A stretch of DNA of 64,000 nt from Alphaproteobacteria bacterium (GCA_028289425.1 JANQPL010000009.1:324961-388960), one strand, 5' to 3'. Positions 44,418 to 61,070 are shown, counted from the first letter of the stretch. The notes: generated from the sequence alone by a model not told the origin. A program made the numbers and translations.

Positions 44418-45587
44418 TTATTCGCGATTGCGGACGCCTGGTCGGCCCGCAAGCAGCCCGCCCCCGAAAACCACGCCTAAGACGATAACAAGGGCGGCGG
44501 CCATAAACATAACGGGGTAACTGCCCGCCTCGATGGCGAAGCCCAACGCCGGCGCCGCCAGCAGGGCGGCCCCATCGTCCAGCGCATTGAAAATGGAGAT
44601 GGCCGAGCCGCGGTCCGCGTCATTCGCCCGCTCGGTCACCAGCGCCAACAGCACCGGATAGCCAAACCCGTGACCCACGCCACAGACAAGGGCCGCTAGG
44701 ACAAAGAGCGGAACGGCCGATGTTACCGACACCAGCAGAAGACCTGCGGCATAGGCCAGCAATGAAGCAATTGCGACCCTCTGATGCCCAAGCCGGTCGG
44801 GCAGCCCGCCGGCAAAGAGGCGTAAGACAATCGCGGTCACCGTATACACGGTAAAGAACAGTCCGATCGATCCGATGCCGGTGATGCCGACCCACGTCTT
44901 GAGAAACACGAAGACGCTGATCATGGAAAAGAAGAAGGCCCCGGCCAACAGCCACACACCGACCAAGGATGGCCGGATCAAGGTTTGCAGCCACCCTTGC
45001 GCACTGCTCCCGTCTTCTTCGGCACCGGCGGGCTTTTTCCCGTCGAGCCAAAAGACCATCAGCATACCAACAATCGACAGAACCATGCTGGTAAGAAAGA
45101 TGCCCTGATAGCCCCCCAACTCAATTGCCCCGTTGCCGACCGCGGCGCCTAAGCCCACGGCCCCCATGGCGGAAATGCCGAACAAGGCAAAGCCTTGGCT
45201 TCGATTGCGTTCCGGAATCACATCCGAGGCGTAAGTAAAGAACGCAACGTTGAGAACGGTCTCGATGGCGCCATGAAGGATGCGCAACGCGAATACGGAC
45301 AAAAGAGACGATGCCACCAAGAAGCCCGCGCACAAAATCACATTGAGCAGGGAGCCAATGACCAGCACTTGCCGCCGGCCGCGCTGGTCAAGCCAGCGCC
45401 CGACAAACGGGGCAATCGCAATCGAGGCAAACTCTGTCAAAGCGACAAGCCAGCCGATGGTCTGTTCGCCTGCGCCAAGCGCCTTCAGGTGCCCCGGGAA
45501 ATGCAGGAACAGATAGAACGACGTCATCTGCGCCAGATTGGCCAGGAAACACAGCACAAAGGGGCGTGAGCGAAAGATCTCTAGCAT
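44418..45587 (-). CDS. MFS transporter
   Basis: 12 predicted transmembrane segments. Confidence 0.75.
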   Translation of the reverse strand: MLEIFRSRPFVLCFLANLAQMTSFYLFLHFPGHLKALGAGEQTIGWLVALTEFASIAIAPFVGRWLDQRGRRQVLVIGSLLNVILCAGFLVASSLLSVFALRILHGAIETVLNVAFFTYASDVIPERNRSQGFALFGISAMGAVGLGAAVGNGAIELGGYQGIFLTSMVLSIVGMLMVFWLDGKKPAGAEEDGSSAQGWLQTLIRPSLVGVWLLAGAFFFSMISVFVFLKTWVGITGIGSIGLFFTVYTVTAIVLRLFAGGLPDRLGHQRVAIASLLAYAAGLLLVSVTSAVPLFVLAALVCGVGHGFGYPVLLALVTERANDADRGSAISIFNALDDGAALLAAPALGFAIEAGSYPVMFMAAALVIVLGVVFGGGLLAGRPGVRNRE

Positions 45588-45694
45588 CGCCCCGCGCTTC
45601 GGCCTCTAGACGCCAGGGTGCATCCCTTGCAATTTTGAGATTCTTTTGGCACTCTATATGTCAATATATTCGATCGAGAATCAAAAGGCATCAT

Positions 45695-46918
45695 ATGGCC
45701 ATTGCGGAAACCGACGAATTGGGTTTTGAGGCGCCTGCCCCCGTAGGACACCCGGGACGGGCCGGCCTGCCGGCTAGCGCGTCAACCGGCCCAGAGATTG
45801 GCGAGCGCCTACCGGACTTCGCGCTGCCTGACGCCTTCGGCAACACGGTGCGTTTTCATGAGCACCGGGGGGCGTCGAAATCTGCCGTCGTCTTCTATCG
45901 TTCCGCGGTTTGGTGACCGCCCTGCATGACGCAGCTGGTCGAGCTGCAAGAGGGTTACAACAAGTTTCAGGAACAGGGCATCAAGCTCTACGCCATTTCT
46001 TATGACGATCAAGAGGTCCTGCGGGATTTCGCGCAGAGCTACGGCATTGAGTATCCCCTGCTGTCGGACATGGACTCGGCGGTCATCAAACAATTCGGCA
46101 TACTGAATACTCAAATCCAGCCGGGCGATGCGGTGCTGTACGGCATTCCCTATCCCGGCACCTACATCACCGATGAAGACGGTGTGGTGATCCAAAAGTT
46201 TTTCCACGACACTTATAAACGGCGCGAAGGACCGGAATTGCTGATCGATGCCGCCCTTGGCCGTGTCGTTCTGGATGACAGCGCCCCGGCAGCCTCCGAA
46301 ACAGACGACGAAGGCATCAAGGTCTCGGCCACCTTGCACGGCGGAGCGATCAAGCAGGGGGCACAGCGGGAAATCATCGTGCGCTTTGAACTGCCGGAGG
46401 GCCTGCACATTTATGGACAACCGGTGCCTGACGGCATGATCCCAACGACAGTAACCGTCAGCGGGCCCGAAGGCTTGGCCGTTGAAGAAACAATCTTTCC
46501 GCCTACAGAACAATTACGACTGGAGAGTTTGGATTTGGATTTGCCCGTTTGGTCGGGCCAAGTGGACATTCGCGTACCCATCTACGCCCTGTCCGCGCTG
46601 CAATCCGAGTGCCGGCCTCTAGATCAAGATGAGATCGATATCGAGGTGGCCGTTCGCTACCAGGCCTGCGATGACAATGTGTGCCTGCTGCCCAAATCGG
46701 AGAGCTTCACCATCACAGCACCTCTGGAGACCATTCACGTTCAGTCTATCGACTTGCATATGGGCCACGGCCAGAAAGAGGCCACTTTTGACGGCACGCC
46801 CCATTTGCGGCGCCTGCTCATCCGCAAGATCCGCCAGAGCCCACTCGGCTTTGTCCGTTATATATTTAAGGAAATGGGCCTGCGCCGCGCCGCCAGAAAG
46901 CGGGCTGTCTCGGACTAG
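45695..46918 (+). CDS. candidate selenoprotein: thioredoxin-fold redoxin (W-U-P-P-C) fused to a DsbD-alpha/DsbC-like domain, with in-frame TGA at 45914-45916
   Basis: ORFs 45566-45916 and 45926-46918 share one frame and are separated only by a TGA that sits exactly where the first Cys of a WCxxC motif is expected (VVFYRSAVW-U-PPCMTQ). A GCAGCUGGUCGAGCUGC hairpin starts 14 nt downstream. The C-terminal domain ends with a YQACDDNVC motif. Confidence 0.55.
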
Positions 46919-51919: not shown

Positions 51920-52438
51920 CTACTCCGTCAGGGCCTTTATGACCGCGTCGACCGTATCGCCGGCCTTGGCACGCATTTCATCGTCGGTAGCATCCTGAAT
52001 GGGATGTTCGACGAAGACACATCGGGCATCTTTCATACCCAATGCCGTTGCTTGCGTATCCGCCGCGTCAACAAATTCCGTGGACGCGATGGAAACTGAG
52101 GGAACCCCCTGAATTTCGAACCAAACCGTGTCATGCAAACTGCATGTCGTGCAGGATCCTCAATCGGCCAGGGCTTCGATAACGAAGTCGCACTCCCTTT
52201 TGATGTCGTGACGGAGATCGTCCGGGCACGGCTTTGTAAACGTGGGCTTGGCGAACCGTTTCACTTCAATGCCCGGCAGCTTTTCCTTGAGCATGCCTTC
52301 GAGCGCATCGAGATAGACGTCGCCGCGGGGCTTGCGGATGTCCATCAAGCCCACCACGCCGGAGATCGCTCCGCTGCGTGGCGTGACCTGCCGGGTCACC
52401 GGCACCGCTTCATTTGTCGGGTCAAGGATGGTGGTCAT
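51920..52438 (-). CDS. UGSC-family (seleno)protein, with in-frame TGA at 52160-52162
   Basis: ORFs 52160-52456 and 51920-52138 are in frame and are joined by the readthrough EALAD-U-G-S-C-TTCSL. I recall UGSC as a named (seleno)protein family. A hairpin (CUGCA-CGACA-UGCAG) lies 5 nt downstream. Confidence 0.6.
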
Positions 52439-52637
52439 CCTTTTTTCCTTTCTCAATTTCGAATGACTCTATATTGCCAGGGAGCACGCTGGGCGCCAAG
52501 ATCATATTTGGTCGCGCCTGCCTGCGCGAAGCCGGAGCTTCGCCCTGCGGGCCAAAGCCCTTCGGGCGACGGGTCGTTCGGCGAAGGCAGGCGATCGGGC
52601 GAAAAACCACGTACACTTTTCCTGATCGCGCTCCGAC

Positions 52638-54228: not shown

Positions 54229-55428
54229 CTATTCGGTCGTCACCTTTTGGTTTCCCAGTGTGTGCACGGCGGAGGCGAACTCATTCAGTCCCAGGTCTTC
54301 CCGCATATCCGCCGTCACATCCGTAAAGTTGGGGTCGAGCGAAATGCCGATGCCGTCGGCAATGCGCACCATGCGTTCGAAATTGCCCACCACACCGGCT
54401 GCATCCACAAACTGCTCAGGGCTAACCGCCGCTAACAGATCAGTACGGGCTGCATCCAACGTCGCCTGATCGCCTTCAACAACGGCGTCGGCAAAGGCCG
54501 TTAGCTCCTTGCCCGCTGGGATCCGTTCGTCCACGCTTTCAGCGCCTTCAACAACACCCGTCAGTTCTACTTCTTCGCCGATCGATTGTGCGCTCACACG
54601 GAGCAGCATCGCATGAGCGGTCGTTCAATAGAAACAGTCGTTAAGTGCGGACACCCTCCCTGCAAGCAGTTCGATTTGAGGGCGCGACAGGTTTCGGCCT
54701 TCGTTGACCGCGCCGAATTTGCCGGCGGGAATGTATTGCACATCGCTTAAGGCGAACCAGTCACGCACGGCATCGGGCACCAAACTCAAGGCACGGGCCA
54801 CATTGGGAATGGTCTTGGCAAAATCCGCGCCCCATAGATCCTCGTCCGGCGCATGGGGTTGTTCCCGCGCCAGCATGGGGACATAGGCCTCGCCATCGAC
54901 CAAGGGGGCCGGCCGCGCTCCCGTCGGCTCTCCAGCGACGGGGCTCGGCAAAGCGTGCACCGGAACACCCAGGCCGCGGCAGGTTTGGTCCATGCTGCGG
55001 ATGGCAACCACGATTCCAAGCGCCTCCACATAATGACCATCCGAGAAACCTGCGTTCGCCAGATCTTCAATCGCTTTTTGGGTAATGCGGGTGACGTCCG
55101 TGACCATCATATGCACCATGGCGATGATGGGCTCCGTCAACACACCTTCCGTCATCGGATCAATGGTATGTTTGCCTTCGATGGTATAGGGGCTGAGTGC
55201 CTTTTTCCGCTCTACGCAAAACGGACATGTGATGGCTGCCCGCGCTTCTGCCGCAATACAAATGCGCTCAGCGCCGGTCCACCACGCGCCTGGCCGCGCG
55301 AGGCGGGACAGAACAACCGCATGGGCGTTCGCCATATCTTCCCGCACCGGCACTTTGCATGTCGCAAAGTCATTCGTGACATTGGCCAGTATGCCGGGGT
55401 CCCGTTGATCGTCGGTGATTTGTGGCAT
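54229..55428 (-). CDS. candidate tandem CMD/AhpD-like selenoprotein, with in-frame TGA at 54625-54627
   Basis: ORFs 54625-55428 and 54229-54609 are in frame. The readthrough is RVSALNDCFY-U-TTAH, i.e. the CMD core signature RVSxxNxCxxCxxxH with Sec at the second Cys. The first domain has TCPFC. Confidence 0.55.
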
Positions 55429-55452
55429 TCAAACTCTCCCCGTCGATTGTTG

Positions 55453-56241
55453 TTATTTGAGTGCTTTTTTGACAGCCTTGAGAACACGCTGCCCGTCGGA
55501 CCTTACTCTATAGTCACTCGATTGATCGATCCAGCGGATCGTGCCCGACGCATCGGTCAGGATGGTCGTGGGAATGGCCAGTGCTCGGCGCATCCCCCGG
55601 CTGTCGCGCGGATCGCCTGCCATGGCGTTGGGGTGCTCCACCCCGTAGGCCTTGATAACCTCCAGATCCGGATCGGCCAGTTGCAGCATGGAGAGCCCAT
55701 GTTTGCTGCGCATCGCGTCCGCCTGCTCGACCGTATTGGGGCTGATGGCGACCATTTTCACGCCCAGCGCGTCGAAATCATCTTGCAAGTCTTCCCATCG
55801 CTGCAACTCAGCGACACAGTAAGGTCACCAATGGCCCCGATAGAATTTGAGAAGCAGCGGGTCATTTTGCCCAGGCTCATATGCAAAAGTGCCCCCATCC
55901 CAATCGGCGGCAGCAAAGGCCGGAGCCGGCGCGCCCACTTTCACACCGACGCCCTTCGGCACCCCACCTTGAGAGAAGAGATAAAGGACAAAGCCGCCAA
56001 GGAGCACAGTGATGGCGGCAAGCGTGCCGCCGACCCAGCCCGGACCGAGAATGAGTGTCCAAACGGCCAACAGAAAACCTGTCAAAACCGACAGCTCGCT
56101 CAGAATGGGCCGCCGCGTGAACCCCTTCTTCAGAACAAGGATACGCCGAAAATAAAGCGCCATCCGCCCGATGACCAGCAGCATGGCCAGCGCAAGGGTG
56201 ACGTAGGGATTCCAGAGAAGTGAGAGAATTTGATCCGCCAT
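55453..56241 (-). CDS. candidate membrane-anchored redoxin selenoprotein (W-U-P-Y-C), with in-frame TGA at 55825-55827
   Basis: Three N-terminal transmembrane helices are followed by LKFYRGHW-U-PYCVAELQ, paralogous to the 45914 site. A GUCGCUG-AGUUG-CAGCGAU hairpin lies 9 nt after the UGA. It is directly downstream of selC. Confidence 0.55.
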
Positions 56242-56407: not shown

Positions 56408-56501
56408 TGGCGGAGGCGGATGGGAATCGAACCCACCACACGCATGGCTGCGTGTCACTGGTTTTGAAGACCAGGGAAGCCACCAGACTCCATTCGCCTC
56501 C
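56408..56501 (-). tRNA. selC: tRNA-Sec (selC), anticodon UCA
   Basis: The reverse complement reads GGAGGCGAAUGG ... CCUGGU-CUUCAAA-ACCAG ... GGUUCGAUUCC ... CCGCCUCCGCCA. It is ~94 nt with a long extra arm, an anticodon loop with UCA at positions 34-36, and an encoded CCA. Confidence 0.75.
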
Positions 56502-56584
56502 TCTCGAAGATGTGGGTTGGACTATGTCACAGCCATTGGCTAGAAAGAAAGAGTGTTGAAGCAATCGAAGGAAAAAGCCACGCG

Positions 56585-57649
56585 ATGGCGGACAAAGATA
56601 AGGTCCGGCTGACGCAGTACGCTGTGTCTGCTGGTTGAGCCGGTAAGCTCGGACCTGGGCAGTTGTCGCAAGTTTTGCGACCGTTGAAAGATATATTTCC
56701 GCAGGCGGATTTTCCCGATGTGCTGAGGGGGCTCAGCTCACCGGACGATGCCGCTGTGCTGAAACTGACCGACGAGTTGTCGATGGTAGCAACGGCGGAC
56801 TTCTTCGCGCCGGTGGTGGATGACCCCTACCAGTTCGGCGCCATCGCCGCCGCCAACGCCCTGTCTGATGTTTACGCAATGGGCGCCGAGCCAAAGCTCG
56901 CGCTTAATCTCGCAGGCTTTCCGAAAACACTGGACCTGGACATTCTGAACGAGATCTTCCGCGGCGGCGCCGACAAGGTGCGCGAGGCGGGCGCCGCCAT
57001 TGCCGGCGGTCACACCACCTTCGACGAAGAACCCAAATACGGCCTGGCGGTAATGGGTGTGCTGAACAAAGCGACCGCTTTCGCCAATGAAGGGGCCAAG
57101 CCCGGCGATCAGTTGATCCTCACCAAACCCATCGGTACGGGGATCATCACCACCGCCCTTAAACAAAGTAAGATCGACGAAAGCGACACCGAAGAAGCCG
57201 TCGCCAGCATGGCGCGCTTGAGCGCAGGCGCGGCGAAGATTTTGCGTGCCGCTCCCGCCGGCGCTGTCCATGCGGTCACCGACATTACCGGCTTCTCATT
57301 GGCGGGCCATGGGCATGAGATGGCGGATCAGTCGGGCGTTGCATTGGAGATTGCGTTTTCGAAGATCCCGCTGCTTGCCGGCACGGACGGCTTGGCCGCG
57401 CAAGGCGTCGCCCCCGGCGGCGCCGGACGGAACAAGGACTATTTCGGCCAATGGTTCGAGCGGGGGCCAAGCATCACCGACGCCCAAGAAACCATCGTCT
57501 TCGACCCGCAAACTTCCGGCGGCTTGCTGGTGGCCGTCGCGCCGCAAGCGCTTGAAAGTCTGATGGCCGATTTTTCCGAAGCAAGCGAGCCGGTTTGGCA
57601 TATCGGCAAGGTCACTGACGGTCCCAATGGCACCATTCACCTTGTTTAA
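56585..57649 (+). CDS. selD: selenide, water dikinase (selenophosphate synthetase), Sec-containing form with UGA at 56636-56638
   Basis: ATG 56585 is followed by KDKVRLTQYAVSAG-U-AGK, aligning with E. coli RLTQYSHGAGCGCK (Cys17). The downstream sequence is collinear with SelD (DFFAPVVDDPYQFG ... GGHT). Confidence 0.8.
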
Positions 57650-57707
57650 GGTGAAAGCTTTTCAGGCCGCTACCTGACGCGCTATCCTTCTTTAAACAGA
57701 AACTTGT

Positions 57708-57779
57708 CCGCCCCGCTCCCCCTTCCCAACCACCCCAAGGGTAACCTTATCGGGTGGTTGGGAAGGGGGAGCGGGGCGG
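57708..57779. repeat. long perfect palindromic element (28-bp stem), copy 2, in the selD-selA spacer
   Basis: CCGCCCCGCTCCCCCTTCCCAACCACCC-CAAGGGTAACCTTATC-GGGTGGTTGGGAAGGGGGAGCGGGGCGG. Confidence 0.6.
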
Positions 57780-57795
57780 TGAGGTCATACAAACA

Positions 57796-59184
57796 ATGGA
57801 CTCGAGCCTTTTTCGCAAAATCCCTCAGGTGAATGACCTGGCATTGAAACCGCACATCGCGCTGCTGGAAGGCGCGTGGAGCCGCGACGAGATGGTCGAT
57901 GCGCTACGCGCAGCACTCGATGAGGTGCGCGAGGGTCTGCGCAAGGGCACTGCCCTGCCCGATTTCGATAGCCCCGCCTTTGCCGCGCATATCGAAGCAC
58001 TCATGGCCGCCACAAGACAGCCCAGCCTGCGCCGCATCATCAATGCCACGGGCATCGTCATCCATACCAATTTGGGGCGCTCGCCCTTAGCACCGGCCGC
58101 CCTGGAAGCGATCCAAGAAACCGCTGCCGGTTACACAAACATCGAAATGACACTTGCGACGGGCCAGCGCGGCTCGCGCTACGATCATGTACGCGATTTG
58201 ATCTGTGAGCTGACAGGTGCGGAAGATGCAATTATGGTCAATAATTGCGCCGCCGCCGTTACCCTGGCGCTTGCTACCTTCGCCAAAGACAAAGAGGTCG
58301 TGGTCTCCCGCGGCGAACTGATCGAAATCGGCGGATCGTTCCGCATCCCGGATATCGTCGCCCAAAACGGCGCCACATTGCGCGAGGTGGGCACCACCAA
58401 CAAGACCCATTTGTCGGATTATCAAAACGCCATTACCGACGGCACAGCCGTTCTGCTGAAAACGCACACAAGTAACTACCGTATCGTCGGTTTCACCGCG
58501 TGCCCCGAACGAACGGCGCTCGCGAAACTTGCCAATGAAAACCAGCTTGTTTTGCTGGAAGATTTGGGCAGCGGGACGTTGATCGACCTCACCGCCTATG
58601 GCATCGGCGACGAGCCCACCGTGCAGCATTGTATCGCCTCCGGCGTGCACTTGGTGACGTTTTCCGGCGACAAGCTGCTGGGCGGACCCCAATGTGGAAT
58701 CATGGCGGGTAAGAAGGAGCTTGTGGCCAAACTGCGCAAGAACCCGCTGCTGCGGGCCATGCGCATCGACAAGCTATCGCTGGCGGCGTTAGAAGCCACC
58801 TTGCGGCTTTACAAGACACCTTTCGAGCCCGAAGAAGATATCCCGACGCTTCGCATGCTGACGGCAACGCCCGAAGAGCTGGAAGAGACGGCGCAGGATC
58901 TTGCGGCGGCGCTCAACGCCCTCCCGGAAGTAACCGCAACGACAGCCCAAACTATGAGCGAAGCGGGTGGCGGCTCCCTGCCTGCCCACCAGTTAGCGTC
59001 GTATTGCGTGCGCCTCACTGTCGGCACATTGACGCCGGATGCGTTGATGGCACGTCTGCGCCAGGGGGGAACACCGATCATCGCACGCATCTCCAAAGGC
59101 GACGTGATCTTGGATGTGCGCACGCTTTTGCCCGATGATGTATCGGATCTGCCGGGCCTGATCGGCGCCCTAGAGAGCACATGA
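57796..59184 (+). CDS. selA: L-seryl-tRNA(Sec) selenium transferase
   Basis: Collinear with E. coli SelA as I recall it ([44 protein letters not shown]). It carries the PLP-lysine region. Confidence 0.85.
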
Positions 59185-61070
59185 CCGAACAACTTTCTCT
59201 CGGCGTGATCGGCCATGTGGACCATGGCAAGACCACGTTGGTCAAAGCGCTCACCGGCATGGAAACCGACCGGCTGAAAGAAGAAAAGCTGCGCGGGCTT
59301 TCTATTGTGCTTGGGTTTGCCTACCTCGAAACCGAACGCGGCCTTATCGACTTTATCGACACACCCGGCCATGCGGATTTCGTCCGTACCATGATTTCCG
59401 GGGTGAGCGGCATCGACGCGGCACTCATCGTCATTTCCGCCAACGAGAAAATCATGCCGCAAACGGTGGAACACATTCGCATTGTGTCTCTGCTGGGTAT
59501 CGACCAGGCGGTGGTGGCGCTCACCAAAACTGATTTAGCGACGGATGACGAGATCCGCGATGCCACCACAGAGATAGAGGCCTATCTTGCCGACACGGCA
59601 TTTTCCAACGTGACCATCGTACCGGTGAGTGCGCCGGCGAACCACGGGGTCGACGACTTGGTGGCCGCGCTCAACACGCTGTTCGACACCAAACCCAAAC
59701 GCGCCGATGTGGGTCATTTCTACTTGCCCTTCGACCGGGTGTTTAGCGTGAAAGGCTTCGGCACGGTCGGCACCGGCACCCTCAGCGCGGGGCCCGTCGC
59801 CGTCGGCGATGTGGCGGAAATCGCGCCGGACGGCCGCAAAGCGCGGGTGCGCAGCCTGGAAGTCCACGGGGGTTCTGTTGAGCGCGCCCTGCCCGGCCAA
59901 AGGGTCGCCGCCAATGTGCGCTTGGAAGGCACCGGCGAGATAGCGAGGGGCAACGCACTCACCTCGCCCGACTGGCTGCCCGCATCGGACTATTGGGATG
60001 GCACACTTCAACTGTTAAGCGACGCGCCGAAGGAACTCAAAAGCGGGGCAAAGCTTCGCATCCTGCATGGCACGACGGAAGACATTGCCACGATCCGCTT
60101 GCTCGACAGAGAGCGCCTCAAGCCTGGTGAAACGGGTCCCGTCCAGTTTCGATTGGCCCAACCCGCCGTGGCCTGGCATCAGGAACGGTTCATCGTGCGT
60201 TCGATCACGCCCGTTCAAACCATTGGCGGCGGTCAATTCACGGACACCCAGGCCAAACGGCGCGGGCGCAAAGACAGCGCGATCACGGCGCCGTCCGAAA
60301 AAGCGGATGCCCGCACGACGGCCCTGCTGTCCATCGTCAATAATGCCGGAACGGACGGTATTTCCCTTGCGGAGCTTGGGCAGCGGGTGGACTTGCCGGA
60401 AGACGATCTGCGCCAGCTCTGCCTTAAACACGAATGCTCTATCGAACAAAACGGGCTGGTCTATGCCAGTGGCGTTATCACCGCCACGATGGAAAAGATC
60501 GCGGCGCTGCTGGGCGAATTTCATGAGGCCAATCCGACCCGCATGGGACAGCAACAAAGCGAGTTGGCGTCACGCCTGGGCGTTCCGCAACGCTTGTTCC
60601 GCTTCGCTATGGCGCTGATGGCCGATACCAAACAATTGAACATAAGCCAAGGCATTGTGCGCCTGACCTCATTCGACCCATTCGCGCAGCTTAAACCTGA
60701 CGAGCGCAAAATATTGGAGGCACTGGAACAGCGTTTGATCGAACAAGGCATCACCGCGCCGACGCTCAAAGAGCTCACAGAAGAAAACCCCAAATTCAAA
60801 GACATCTCGCGGTTTTTAGTGGATACAAACCATGCCATCGCGGTTTTCGATGAAAAACGAAAGAACCTGTTCTTCTTCCATCACAGTGCCATTGATGGGG
60901 CCATTGAGGATTTGCGAAAGGCCTTTCCACCGCCGGCGGCCTTCACAGCCAGTCAAGCCCGCGAGGCGCTGGGCACCACCCGCAAATATGTCATGCCGTT
61001 GCTGGGCCATCTGGACAAACAAAAAATTACGCGGCGCAAGGACGACATGCGCACGCTAGCAGTCCAATAA
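59181..61070 (+). CDS. selB: selenocysteine-specific elongation factor
   Basis: GTPase motifs GHVDHGKTT and DTPGH are followed by the C-terminal winged-helix extension. A 4-nt overlap with selA suggests translational coupling. Confidence 0.85.

What the first reader, a model, noticed from the sequence alone, without database searches (positions are those of the whole stretch)
45695..46918. Second WUPxC selenoprotein candidate: redoxin fused to a DsbD-alpha/DsbC-like domain
An in-frame TGA at 45914-45916 lies in VVFYRSAVW-U-PPCMTQL, the same motif as the membrane redoxin ~10 kb away. A 6-bp-stem hairpin (loop GGUCG) lies 14 nt downstream. The C-terminal ~200 aa end in YQACDDNVC, reminiscent of the DsbD N-terminal (alpha) domain. 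I do not know a described equivalent of this periplasm-style disulfide-relay fusion with a Sec-containing Trx module.
Basis: partly seen in the sequence, partly recalled or inferred. Interest (0 to 1): 0.75.

Follow-up and report, generated by a model that had tools for sequence, protein, structure and literature searches.

The report
Sec-containing redoxin fused to DsbD-alpha domain
This is a real selenocysteine-encoding gene for a two-domain thiol/selenol redox protein whose family was already listed in the 2008 ocean-metagenome selenoprotein catalogue, although every public gene call cuts it in two and its DsbD-alpha-like second domain, apparently inside the cell, has not been discussed.

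Summary
ORF 45695-46918(+) has an in-frame TGA at 45914-45916 inside W-U-P-P-C, followed 14 nt later by a 6-bp hairpin with loop GGUCG. In all 80 related genome loci (77 in the first regex pass) the codon is TGA, never Cys. The 73 upstream codons are conserved, the hairpin is conserved with GC/GU/AU covariation, and synonymous variation is lowest there. tRNA-Sec, selD, selA and selB lie 10-15 kb away.

The 407-aa product has four parts:
- A conserved N-terminal extension with no signal peptide.
- An AhpC/TSA-fold redoxin whose U74-x-x-C77 aligns on the CxxC of ResA.
- An invariant HxGHGQ motif and a very basic two-helix tail.

The most likely function is a self-contained two-centre selenol/thiol-disulfide relay, probably cytoplasmic.

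It is not new as a selenoprotein. Identical-type sequences sit under 'Prx-like 1' in the GOS 2008 dataset. The 'periplasm-style' reading is not supported for this subfamily, although distant Cys-forms do carry signal peptides. I did not find the DsbD-alpha fusion, the tail or the strict Sec use discussed in the papers searched. Interest is moderate to low.

The parts
45695..46918 (+). Complete selenoprotein CDS: 407 codons with Sec at codon 74, stop TAG at 46916-46918. SD-like AAAAGG at 45683-45688.
   Evidence: The start is conserved across 80 loci and often lies directly after an upstream stop.
45695..45796 (+). Conserved N-terminal extension (residues 1-34; family consensus M-T-I-E-R-D-x-x-GFDAPAPLGHPGRxGLPxGHxTGP). 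It is not a signal peptide.
   Evidence: maximum 10-residue hydropathy in the first 45 aa: median 0.59.
45797..46192 (+). AhpC/TSA-fold (Prx-like, ResA-like) redoxin domain, residues 35-166.
   Evidence: PF00578 1.5e-31, PF08534 1.4e-17. (ResA 4nmu 4.5e-12, with WCEPC aligned on WUPPC).
45911..45925 (+). Redox motif W73-U74-P75-P76-C77. The Sec codon TGA is at 45914-45916 and the Cys77 codon TGC at 45923-45925.
   Evidence: TGA 79/79, Cys77 79/79.
45931..45947 (+). Bacterial SECIS-type hairpin inside the coding sequence: 6-bp stem, loop GGUCG. Most orthologs have up to 8 bp with a GGU loop.
46355..46714 (+). DsbD-alpha-type Ig-like domain, residues 221-340.
46667..46684 (+). Invariant Cys pair C325-x4-C330 within RYQACDDNVCLLP, aligned with DsbD Cys103/Cys109.
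46757..46774 (+). Invariant H355-x-G-H-G-Q360 motif of unknown role.
46796..46915 (+). Conserved basic C-terminal tail, residues 368-407. It is predicted as two helices with a median net charge of +11, on a body of net charge -24.
   Evidence: helices at residues 368-381 and 383-406, pLDDT 83-89..
56412..56501 (-). tRNA-Sec (anticodon UCA), the trans-acting decoder of the UGA.
   Evidence: (RF01852, 83 bits).
56585..61070 (+). selD (itself Sec-containing, U at 56636-56638), selA (57754-59184) and selB (59181-61070): the Sec synthesis and insertion machinery.
   Evidence: TIGR00476 368 bits, TIGR00474 581 bits, TIGR00475 300 bits, all above their cutoffs.

Best explanation
The region is one gene, 45695-46918(+), for a 407-aa selenoprotein. 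UGA 45914-45916 is read as selenocysteine by the organism's own SelA/SelB/SelD/tRNA-Sec system, directed by a SECIS hairpin embedded in the next codons (45931-45947). This step is shown by comparative evidence. The protein carries exactly two conserved redox centres. The first is a thioredoxin-type U74-P-P-C77 on an AhpC/TSA-fold domain, with a ResA/tryparedoxin-like active site rather than a peroxiredoxin one. The second is C325-x4-C330 on a DsbD-alpha-type Ig domain (shown). The inferred mechanism is that the two centres exchange electrons, within one chain or between chains, in the way DsbD-alpha exchanges with its Trx-fold partners CcmG, DsbC and DsbD-gamma. The highly nucleophilic Sec would attack a substrate disulfide or another oxidised sulfur or selenium species, C77 would resolve the adduct into a selenenylsulfide, and the Ig-domain Cys pair would relay the redox equivalents to or from an external partner. 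Because no ortholog has a signal peptide or TM helix, this subfamily most probably works in the cytoplasm (inferred). The strongly basic two-helix tail may pack on the acidic body or hold the protein at the membrane or another anionic surface (speculative). In classification terms it is a member of the catalogued 'Prx-like (1) thiol:disulfide oxidoreductase, UxxC' selenoprotein family.
For: The upstream 73 codons are conserved as protein with free synonymous change, and the Pfam AhpC-TSA match spans the TGA. The hairpin pairs in 95% of cells against 22-46% in slid controls, with one pair showing GC 51, GU 18, AU 7. Thr ACG and Glu GAG are 79/79, and synonymous diversity is 0.52 against a gene mean of 0.90 just after the TGA. 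The hairpin dominates the fold in 54/79 orthologs. tRNA-Sec, selD, selA and selB are in the window. Domains. Cys register with DsbD C103/C109. Only four invariant Cys/Sec positions. No signal peptide or TM. Family identity: (GOS Dataset S1, '#Prx-like 1').
Against: There is no biochemical data for any member. The direction of electron flow, the substrate and the partner are unknown. I could not inspect model coordinates, so contact between the two centres is not shown. DsbD-alpha domains are otherwise known only from the periplasm, and distant Cys-forms have signal peptides, so a non-classical export route is not excluded. No conserved neighbour gene points to a pathway. RNAalifold did not return the hairpin as the consensus structure. 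Covariation rests on a single base pair within coding sequence.
Confidence: 0.8

Rival explanations
1. It is a selenocysteine peroxiredoxin. Sec74 would reduce peroxides, C77 would be the resolving residue, and the DsbD-alpha-like Cys pair would be a built-in recycling module, as in Prx-Grx fusions.
Against: The universal Prx motif P-x-x-x-T/S-x-x-C is absent. The residues at positions -7 and -3 from U74 are F67 and A71. At the position of the Prx catalytic Arg, the alignment with ResA places the Trx-type cis-Pro, P154. The active site aligns on the CxxC of ResA, and WCPPC is the tryparedoxin motif. Published catalogues separate this family from Sec-Prx (TxxU) for that reason.
Confidence: 0.2
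2. It is a periplasmic disulfide-relay protein: a CcmG/TlpA-like reductase fused to its DsbD-alpha-type donor and exported to the periplasm.
For: All characterised DsbD-alpha and ScsB-alpha domains are periplasmic. Distant homologs with the same two domains carry signal peptides: P0193, P0208, P0216, P0235 and P0249 with WCPYC, and P0184, a Sec-form with a lipoprotein signal.
Against: 80/80 orthologs start at M-T-I-E-R-D with no hydrophobic stretch. Many have a stop codon 0-3 codons upstream of that Met, so there is no room for a leader. There is no TM-like segment (maximum 19-residue hydropathy 1.02 in the window protein, family median 1.07). No DsbD-beta or CcdA gene is conserved nearby.
Confidence: 0.12
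3. The TGA is a true stop. Either the locus is a split or decaying gene, or it encodes two separate products, a 73-aa peptide and a 330-aa N-truncated protein starting at ATG 45926.
For: All public gene calls annotate it this way. The single-sequence hairpin is not statistically unusual.
Against: An inactivating stop would not be conserved at the same codon in 80/80 loci from different phyla while both flanks stay under protein-level selection. The 330-aa product would lack the active site and the first strands of the Trx fold. Downstream 'starts' differ between orthologs, M77, M83 or M95, and most have W at position 77 instead of Met. The Sec machinery and four other selenoprotein genes are in the same window.
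Confidence: 0.02

Closest known systems
'Prx-like 1' / 'Prx-like thiol:disulfide oxidoreductase' selenoprotein family (Kryukov, Zhang and Gladyshev catalogues; GOS 2008, Sargasso 2005)
   Same: It has a PF00578 hit and a thioredoxin-like UxxC instead of the Prx TxxU. Orthologous reads with the same N-terminus, RSAVWUPPCWTQLGELRD and the start of the Ig domain are in GOS Dataset S1 under this heading.
   Different: The published family is a broad bin of 225 Sec and 2,740 Cys sequences in GOS. The papers I could search do not describe the DsbD-alpha-like domain, the HxGHGQ and basic tail, or the absence of Cys-forms in this subfamily.
DsbD N-terminal (alpha) domain and ScsB N-terminal domain (PF11412; PDB 1JPE, 1VRS, 1Z5Y, 6DPS, 6C29)
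   Different: There is no DsbD-beta membrane domain, no gamma domain and no signal peptide. The Cys loop is one residue shorter (C-x4-C against C-x5-C). Sequence identity is only 12-16%.
ResA / TlpA / CcmG-type extracytoplasmic thiol-disulfide oxidoreductases
   Same: These are the closest solved sequences (ResA 4.5e-12). The W-C-x-P-C motif aligns on W-U-P-P-C, and the cis-Pro loop is retained.
   Different: Those proteins are membrane-anchored or secreted, use Cys, and are single-domain. All NCBIfam scores are far below their cutoffs (58 against 170 for ResA).
Tryparedoxin / nucleoredoxin (WCPPC active site)
   Same: The active-site pentapeptide is identical, with Sec in place of the first Cys. 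These are cytosolic relay oxidoreductases. Weak sequence hits exist (1ewx, 1o7u, about 5e-4).
   Different: They are eukaryotic, single-domain and Cys-based. The similarity is limited to residues 62-107.

Membership tests
Bacterial selenoprotein gene (UGA-Sec with bSECIS) | In-frame UGA at a position occupied by Cys in homologs and conserved as UGA in orthologs | tested here: met
Distant homologs have WCxxC at the same place.
Bacterial selenoprotein gene (UGA-Sec with bSECIS) | Protein-level conservation on both sides of the UGA in one frame | tested here: met
   The Pfam AhpC-TSA match covers 35-166 across codon 74. The upstream 40 aa are conserved.
Bacterial selenoprotein gene (UGA-Sec with bSECIS) | Stem-loop shortly downstream of the UGA with G/GU in the apical loop, conserved in orthologs | tested here: met
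   The hairpin starts 13-14 nt after the UGA, with loops CGGUG, CGGCG, AGGUG or GGUCG. 95% of cells are paired and one pair covaries. Synonymous sites are frozen. Caveat: RNAalifold does not return it.
Bacterial selenoprotein gene (UGA-Sec with bSECIS) | Host encodes tRNA-Sec, SelA, SelB and SelD | tested here: met
Bacterial selenoprotein gene (UGA-Sec with bSECIS) | Selenium actually incorporated in the protein | not testable with these tools
   Needs 75Se labelling or mass spectrometry.
Prx-like 1 (UxxC) selenoprotein family of the GOS/Sargasso catalogues | pfam00578 homology with a UxxC motif instead of TxxU | tested here: met
   Searches (PF00578 1.5e-31; U-P-P-C), and the definitions.
Prx-like 1 (UxxC) selenoprotein family of the GOS/Sargasso catalogues | Orthologous sequences listed under that family by its authors | tested here: met
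   JCVI_READ_1947008, JCVI_READ_1095899084694 and JCVI_READ_1092963467129 under '#Prx-like 1'. 'RSAVWU' occurs 13 times in a truncated file.
Peroxiredoxin (catalytic sense) | P-x-x-x-T/S-x-x-Cp active-site motif | tested here: not met
   The sequence is F67-Y-R-S-A71-V-W-U74. Neither Pro at -7 nor Thr/Ser at -3 is present.
Peroxiredoxin (catalytic sense) | Conserved catalytic Arg | tested here: inconclusive
   In the HMMER alignment with ResA, the corresponding loop is the cis-Pro loop (P152/P154 invariant). No structure-based superposition on a Prx active site was possible.
DsbD-alpha / PF11412 domain | Pfam DsbD_N match above the gathering score | tested here: met
   38.0 bits against a cutoff of 25, residues 221-340.
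DsbD-alpha / PF11412 domain | Ig-like beta-sandwich fold closest to DsbD-alpha or ScsB-alpha | tested here: met
DsbD-alpha / PF11412 domain | Catalytic Cys pair (E. coli C103/C109) present and in register | tested here: met
   hhalign against E. coli DsbD residues 20-158 aligns C325 with C103 and C330 with C109, with one residue deleted. Both are invariant in 79/79.
DsbD (whole protein: alpha-beta-gamma electron transporter) | Signal peptide, TM beta domain with two Cys, and C-terminal Trx-like gamma domain | tested here: not met
   No signal peptide or TM. The domain order is redoxin then alpha, with no beta domain.
ResA/TlpA/CcmG equivalogs (NCBIfam) | Score above the curated cutoff | tested here: not met
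   ResA 58.4 against 170, TlpA 16.4 against 230, DsbE 14.8 against 123.

The most novel reading that the evidence does not exclude
A DsbD-alpha-type Ig domain, so far known only as a periplasmic electron shuttle, here works inside the cytoplasm as the partner of an obligately selenocysteine-dependent WUPPC redoxin. A previously undescribed conserved C-terminal module (HxGHGQ plus a +11 two-helix tail) would target or regulate it. This would be a self-contained cytoplasmic selenol/thiol relay widespread in marine Proteobacteria and Myxococcota, with a substrate that cannot be served by a Cys version.
Probability: 0.3. Interest if true: 0.55.

Novelty: new member of a known kind. Interest (0 to 1): 0.35.

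Why it matters
There is a practical point. Every public gene call of this widespread family (over 1,000 sequences, at least 122 GTDB species) is split into a 72-73 aa fragment and a 300-335 aa protein that lacks its active site. No NCBIfam model covers it, so annotation pipelines keep mis-calling it, and a curated HMM with a Sec flag would fix that. There is also a biological point. The family has strict Sec use with no close Cys-form, a DsbD-alpha-type domain in a protein without an export signal, and a cultured host (HTCC2143) in which it could be tested. It does not change what is known about selenoproteins in kind, because Prx-like and Trx-like UxxC proteins are among the commonest marine selenoproteins.

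Tried and rejected
Structure and exhaustive searches therefore used residues 78-407 only, and the active-site half was not modelled.
- The contig look-up for the 100%-identical P0001 found nothing.
- The afdb50 fold library was unavailable.
- Model coordinates are not returned, so the distance between the two redox centres could not be measured. A second AF2 job was not spent for that reason.
- RNAalifold gives a different, weak 4-bp helix instead of the SECIS hairpin. I relied instead on explicit pair counts, synonymous-site analysis and single-sequence folding.
- The Rfam gathering scan returned only tRNA-Sec and no SECIS family.
- Neighbourhood clustering over 80 loci gave no conserved partner, only generic SDR, GST, ADH, nitroreductase and AMP-ligase genes plus antisense shadow ORFs. 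The context of a Cys-form (P0156) was also uninformative.
- A family profile against PDB sequences does not reach DsbD. The link needed Pfam, fold search and hhalign.
- A literature search for DsbD_N or PF11412 together with selenocysteine found nothing relevant.
- Alternative upstream GTG start at 45566: rejected, because that segment is not conserved even in the 87% ortholog and overlaps the divergent MFS gene.

Full report
**Observation**

The frame opened by ATG 45695 (SD-like AAAAGG at 45683-45688) runs to TAG 46916-46918. It contains one in-frame TGA at 45914-45916, inside VVFYRSAVW-U-PPCMTQL. The hairpin GCAGCU/GGUCG/AGCUGC lies at 45931-47, 14 nt after the TGA. With U replaced by C, Pfam gives three relevant matches:
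- AhpC-TSA, residues 35-166 (1.5e-31). This match spans the TGA.
- Redoxin (1.4e-17).
- DsbD_N, residues 221-340 (1.9e-9, 38 bits against a gathering score of 25).

A second W-U-P-x-C redoxin candidate lies at 55825-55827(-). The only imprecision is that YQACDDNVC (residues 322-330) is followed by 77 more conserved residues.

**Is the TGA decoded as Sec?**

The organism has the machinery in the same window:
- tRNA-Sec at 56412-56501(-), Rfam 83 bits.
- selD, which itself has Sec in SAGU.
- selA and selB, all above their curated cutoffs.

Two curated selenoprotein families are also in the window, AhpD_rel_CFYUT and UGSC_fam.

A search of 5.8 billion proteins found more than 1,000 relatives. All of the best 120 are 300-335 aa and begin after the TGA, at differing downstream starts. 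A search with the N-terminal 125 residues returned only fragments of 70-89 aa that end at the TGA, and no full-length Cys-form among the best 120.

I fetched 80 genome loci. They come mostly from Halieaceae, Luminiphilus, Halioglobus and other Pseudomonadales, from Myxococcota, and from Alphaproteobacteria MAGs, and include the isolate HTCC2143. Every one has TGA inside an invariant W-U-P-P-C, with a strongly conserved upstream peptide PEIGERLPDFxLPDAxG..FHxDRG..KAVVVFYRSAV (the first regex pass caught 77).

**The hairpin**

The hairpin is conserved, up to 8 bp with a GGU-type loop in most orthologs.
- 95% of cells pair, against 22-46% when the 3' partners are slid.
- One pair shows GC 51, GU 18, AU 7 and one mismatch.
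- Four-fold and two-fold degenerate sites in the stem are frozen: Thr ACG 79/79 and Glu GAG 79/79.
- Synonymous diversity has its gene-wide minimum there, 0.52 against 0.90.
- The hairpin is the dominant fold in 54 of 79 orthologs. In the rest it costs 1.5 kcal/mol on average.

There are caveats. The single-sequence z-scores are unremarkable. RNAalifold does not return the helix. Covariation rests on one pair.

The other four Sec genes of the window also have a hairpin shortly after their UGA. Three of those loops contain GU, and the CFYU loop (AUGCUGCUC) does not.

I regard Sec decoding as established as far as sequence analysis can.

**Anatomy of the protein**

1. Residues 1-34 form a conserved extension (consensus MTIERDxxGFDAPAPLGHPGRxGLPxGHxTGP). 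The start is fixed, since in many loci a stop lies 0-3 codons upstream. There is no hydrophobic core, so there is no signal peptide.
2. Residues 35-166 and beyond form an AhpC/TSA-fold redoxin.
   - The nearest solved sequences are ResA proteins (4.5e-12), with WCEPC aligned on WUPPC and the cis-Pro loop retained.
   - BCP/PrxQ proteins follow at about 1e-9, and tryparedoxins (the WCPPC proteins) at about 5e-4.
   - The Prx signature PxxxT/SxxC is absent.
3. Residues 221-340 form a DsbD-alpha-type domain.
   - The AF2 model of residues 78-407 is confident (pLDDT 90.3, pTM 0.86).
   - Its best Foldseek matches are DsbD N-terminal domains and ScsB-N.
   - hhalign against E. coli DsbD, fetched, puts C325 on Cys103 and C330 on Cys109, with a one-residue shorter loop.
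4. Next come an invariant H355-x-G-H-G-Q360 motif and a two-helix tail (residues 368-406). The tail has a median net charge of +11 on a body of net charge -24.

Only four Cys/Sec positions are invariant: U74, C77, C325 and C330. No TM-like segment exists.

**Wider family**

An exhaustive HMMER scan of 1.84 billion representatives found 2,369 clusters at E up to 1e-3. Of the best 150:
- 8 are full-length WCxxC Cys-forms with the same two domains.
- 1 is WSxxC.
- 1 is 'WWxxC'. Its cluster also holds split 80-aa and 232-aa members, so it is a Sec-form in which TGA was read as W.
- 140 lack the motif because they are N-truncated or are fragments.

Five Cys-forms have clear signal peptides and three do not. 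None has the C-terminal tail. The redoxin plus DsbD-alpha architecture is therefore old and occurs in exported versions. The subfamily in this window is the signal-less, tail-bearing, Sec-only branch.

**Mechanism**

What is shown: there are two redox centres on two domains. The homologs of these two domain types are physiological electron-exchange partners, as in DsbD-alpha with CcmG, DsbC and DsbD-gamma.

What is inferred: Sec74 is the attacking nucleophile and C77 resolves the adduct to a selenenylsulfide. The C325/C330 pair then shuttles redox equivalents between this centre and an external donor or acceptor. The site of action is inferred to be cytoplasmic, and the tail may provide electrostatic docking.

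Neighbourhoods give no pathway. No gene is conserved next to it in 80 loci, nor next to a Cys-form. tRNA-Sec lies within 6 kb in two Halieaceae loci.

A peroxidase role is the main functional rival. Its active-site hallmarks are missing.

**Comparison with the literature**

'Prx-like protein' with a thioredoxin-like UXXC motif is a listed prokaryotic selenoprotein family. It had 22 Sec sequences against 4 Cys homologs in the Sargasso Sea dataset (PMC1088965). It appears as 'Prx-like 1', pfam00578, UxxC, with 225 sequences in GOS (PMC2398784). The 2026 review table lists 'Prx-like thiol:disulfide oxidoreductase' as 'predicted with high confidence' (PMC13188914).

Searching GOS Dataset S1 for signature strings found this exact subfamily under '#Prx-like 1'. 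JCVI_READ_1947008 is one example, and it runs into the Ig domain. 'RSAVWU' occurs 13 times in a truncated file. The same file also holds signal-peptide WUPYC plus DsbD-alpha forms and the membrane WUPYC redoxin type.

The fusion section and Figure S1 of that paper list other fusions, not this one. 'DsbD' appears in the 2026 review only for the unrelated TsoB. JGI's automatic names already read 'AhpC/TSA family/Thiol:disulfide interchange protein DsbD, N-terminal'. No NCBIfam model reaches its cutoff.

**Verdict**

This is a real, correctly spotted selenoprotein gene, but it belongs to an already catalogued family. Three things appear undescribed in the literature I could search: the DsbD-alpha-type domain in a signal-less protein, the conserved HxGHGQ motif with basic tail, and the complete absence of Cys-forms in the close subfamily. 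Interest 0.35. Novelty: new member of a known kind.

Noticed in passing
window 54229-56241 (-): This looks like a two-selenoprotein operon. A membrane-anchored Prx-like redoxin (262 aa, hydrophobic N-terminal segments, FYRGHW-U-PYC, U at 55825-55827) has no NCBIfam equivalog. It is followed 25 nt later by an AhpD_rel_CFYUT selenoprotein (54229-55428, U at 54625-54627, NF041238 422 bits). A Prx-like/AhpD-like gene pairing is mentioned in the GOS paper and the 2026 review, and GOS reads such as JCVI_READ_1929089 match the membrane redoxin.
   Followed up: partly
window 51920-52456 (-): A UGSC-family selenoprotein (U at 52160-52162; NF041046 169 bits against a cutoff of 125), with a hairpin (loop GUU) 13 nt after the UGA.
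   Followed up: partly
window 56412-61070: The Sec machinery is clustered: tRNA-Sec (-) is divergent from selD (Sec-containing, SAGU, U at 56636-56638), then selA and selB. Together with four other selenoprotein genes within about 15 kb, this part of the window is a selenium island.
   Followed up: partly
L033:3673-3766 and L042:342-435: In two Halieaceae genomes, tRNA-Sec lies within 2.5-6 kb of the ortholog of the target gene. None was found within 6 kb in the other 39 loci scanned.
   Followed up: no
proteins P0132, P0184, P0152 (metagenomic relatives): P0132 (616 aa) is a tandem duplication of the redoxin plus DsbD-alpha unit; the first unit is N-truncated and the second carries WSSYC. P0184 has a lipoprotein signal peptide and 'WWPFC', and its cluster contains split 80-aa and 232-aa members, so it is a secreted Sec-form in which TGA was read as Trp. 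P0152 lacks the active site and the Ig domain, so it is an internal deletion or an assembly artefact.
   Followed up: partly
L075, L049, L012, L029, L035: Orthologs sit in MAGs labelled Nitrosopumilus, Bacteroidia and Spirochaetaceae. Given 54-62% identity to proteobacterial and myxococcal versions, these are more likely binning errors than true hosts.
   Followed up: no
window 45809-46513 (-) and equivalents in 64 loci: A long antisense ORF (234 aa) overlaps the target gene and recurs in 64 of 81 loci. It behaves like a GC-rich shadow ORF of the conserved sense frame, not like a gene.
   Followed up: partly
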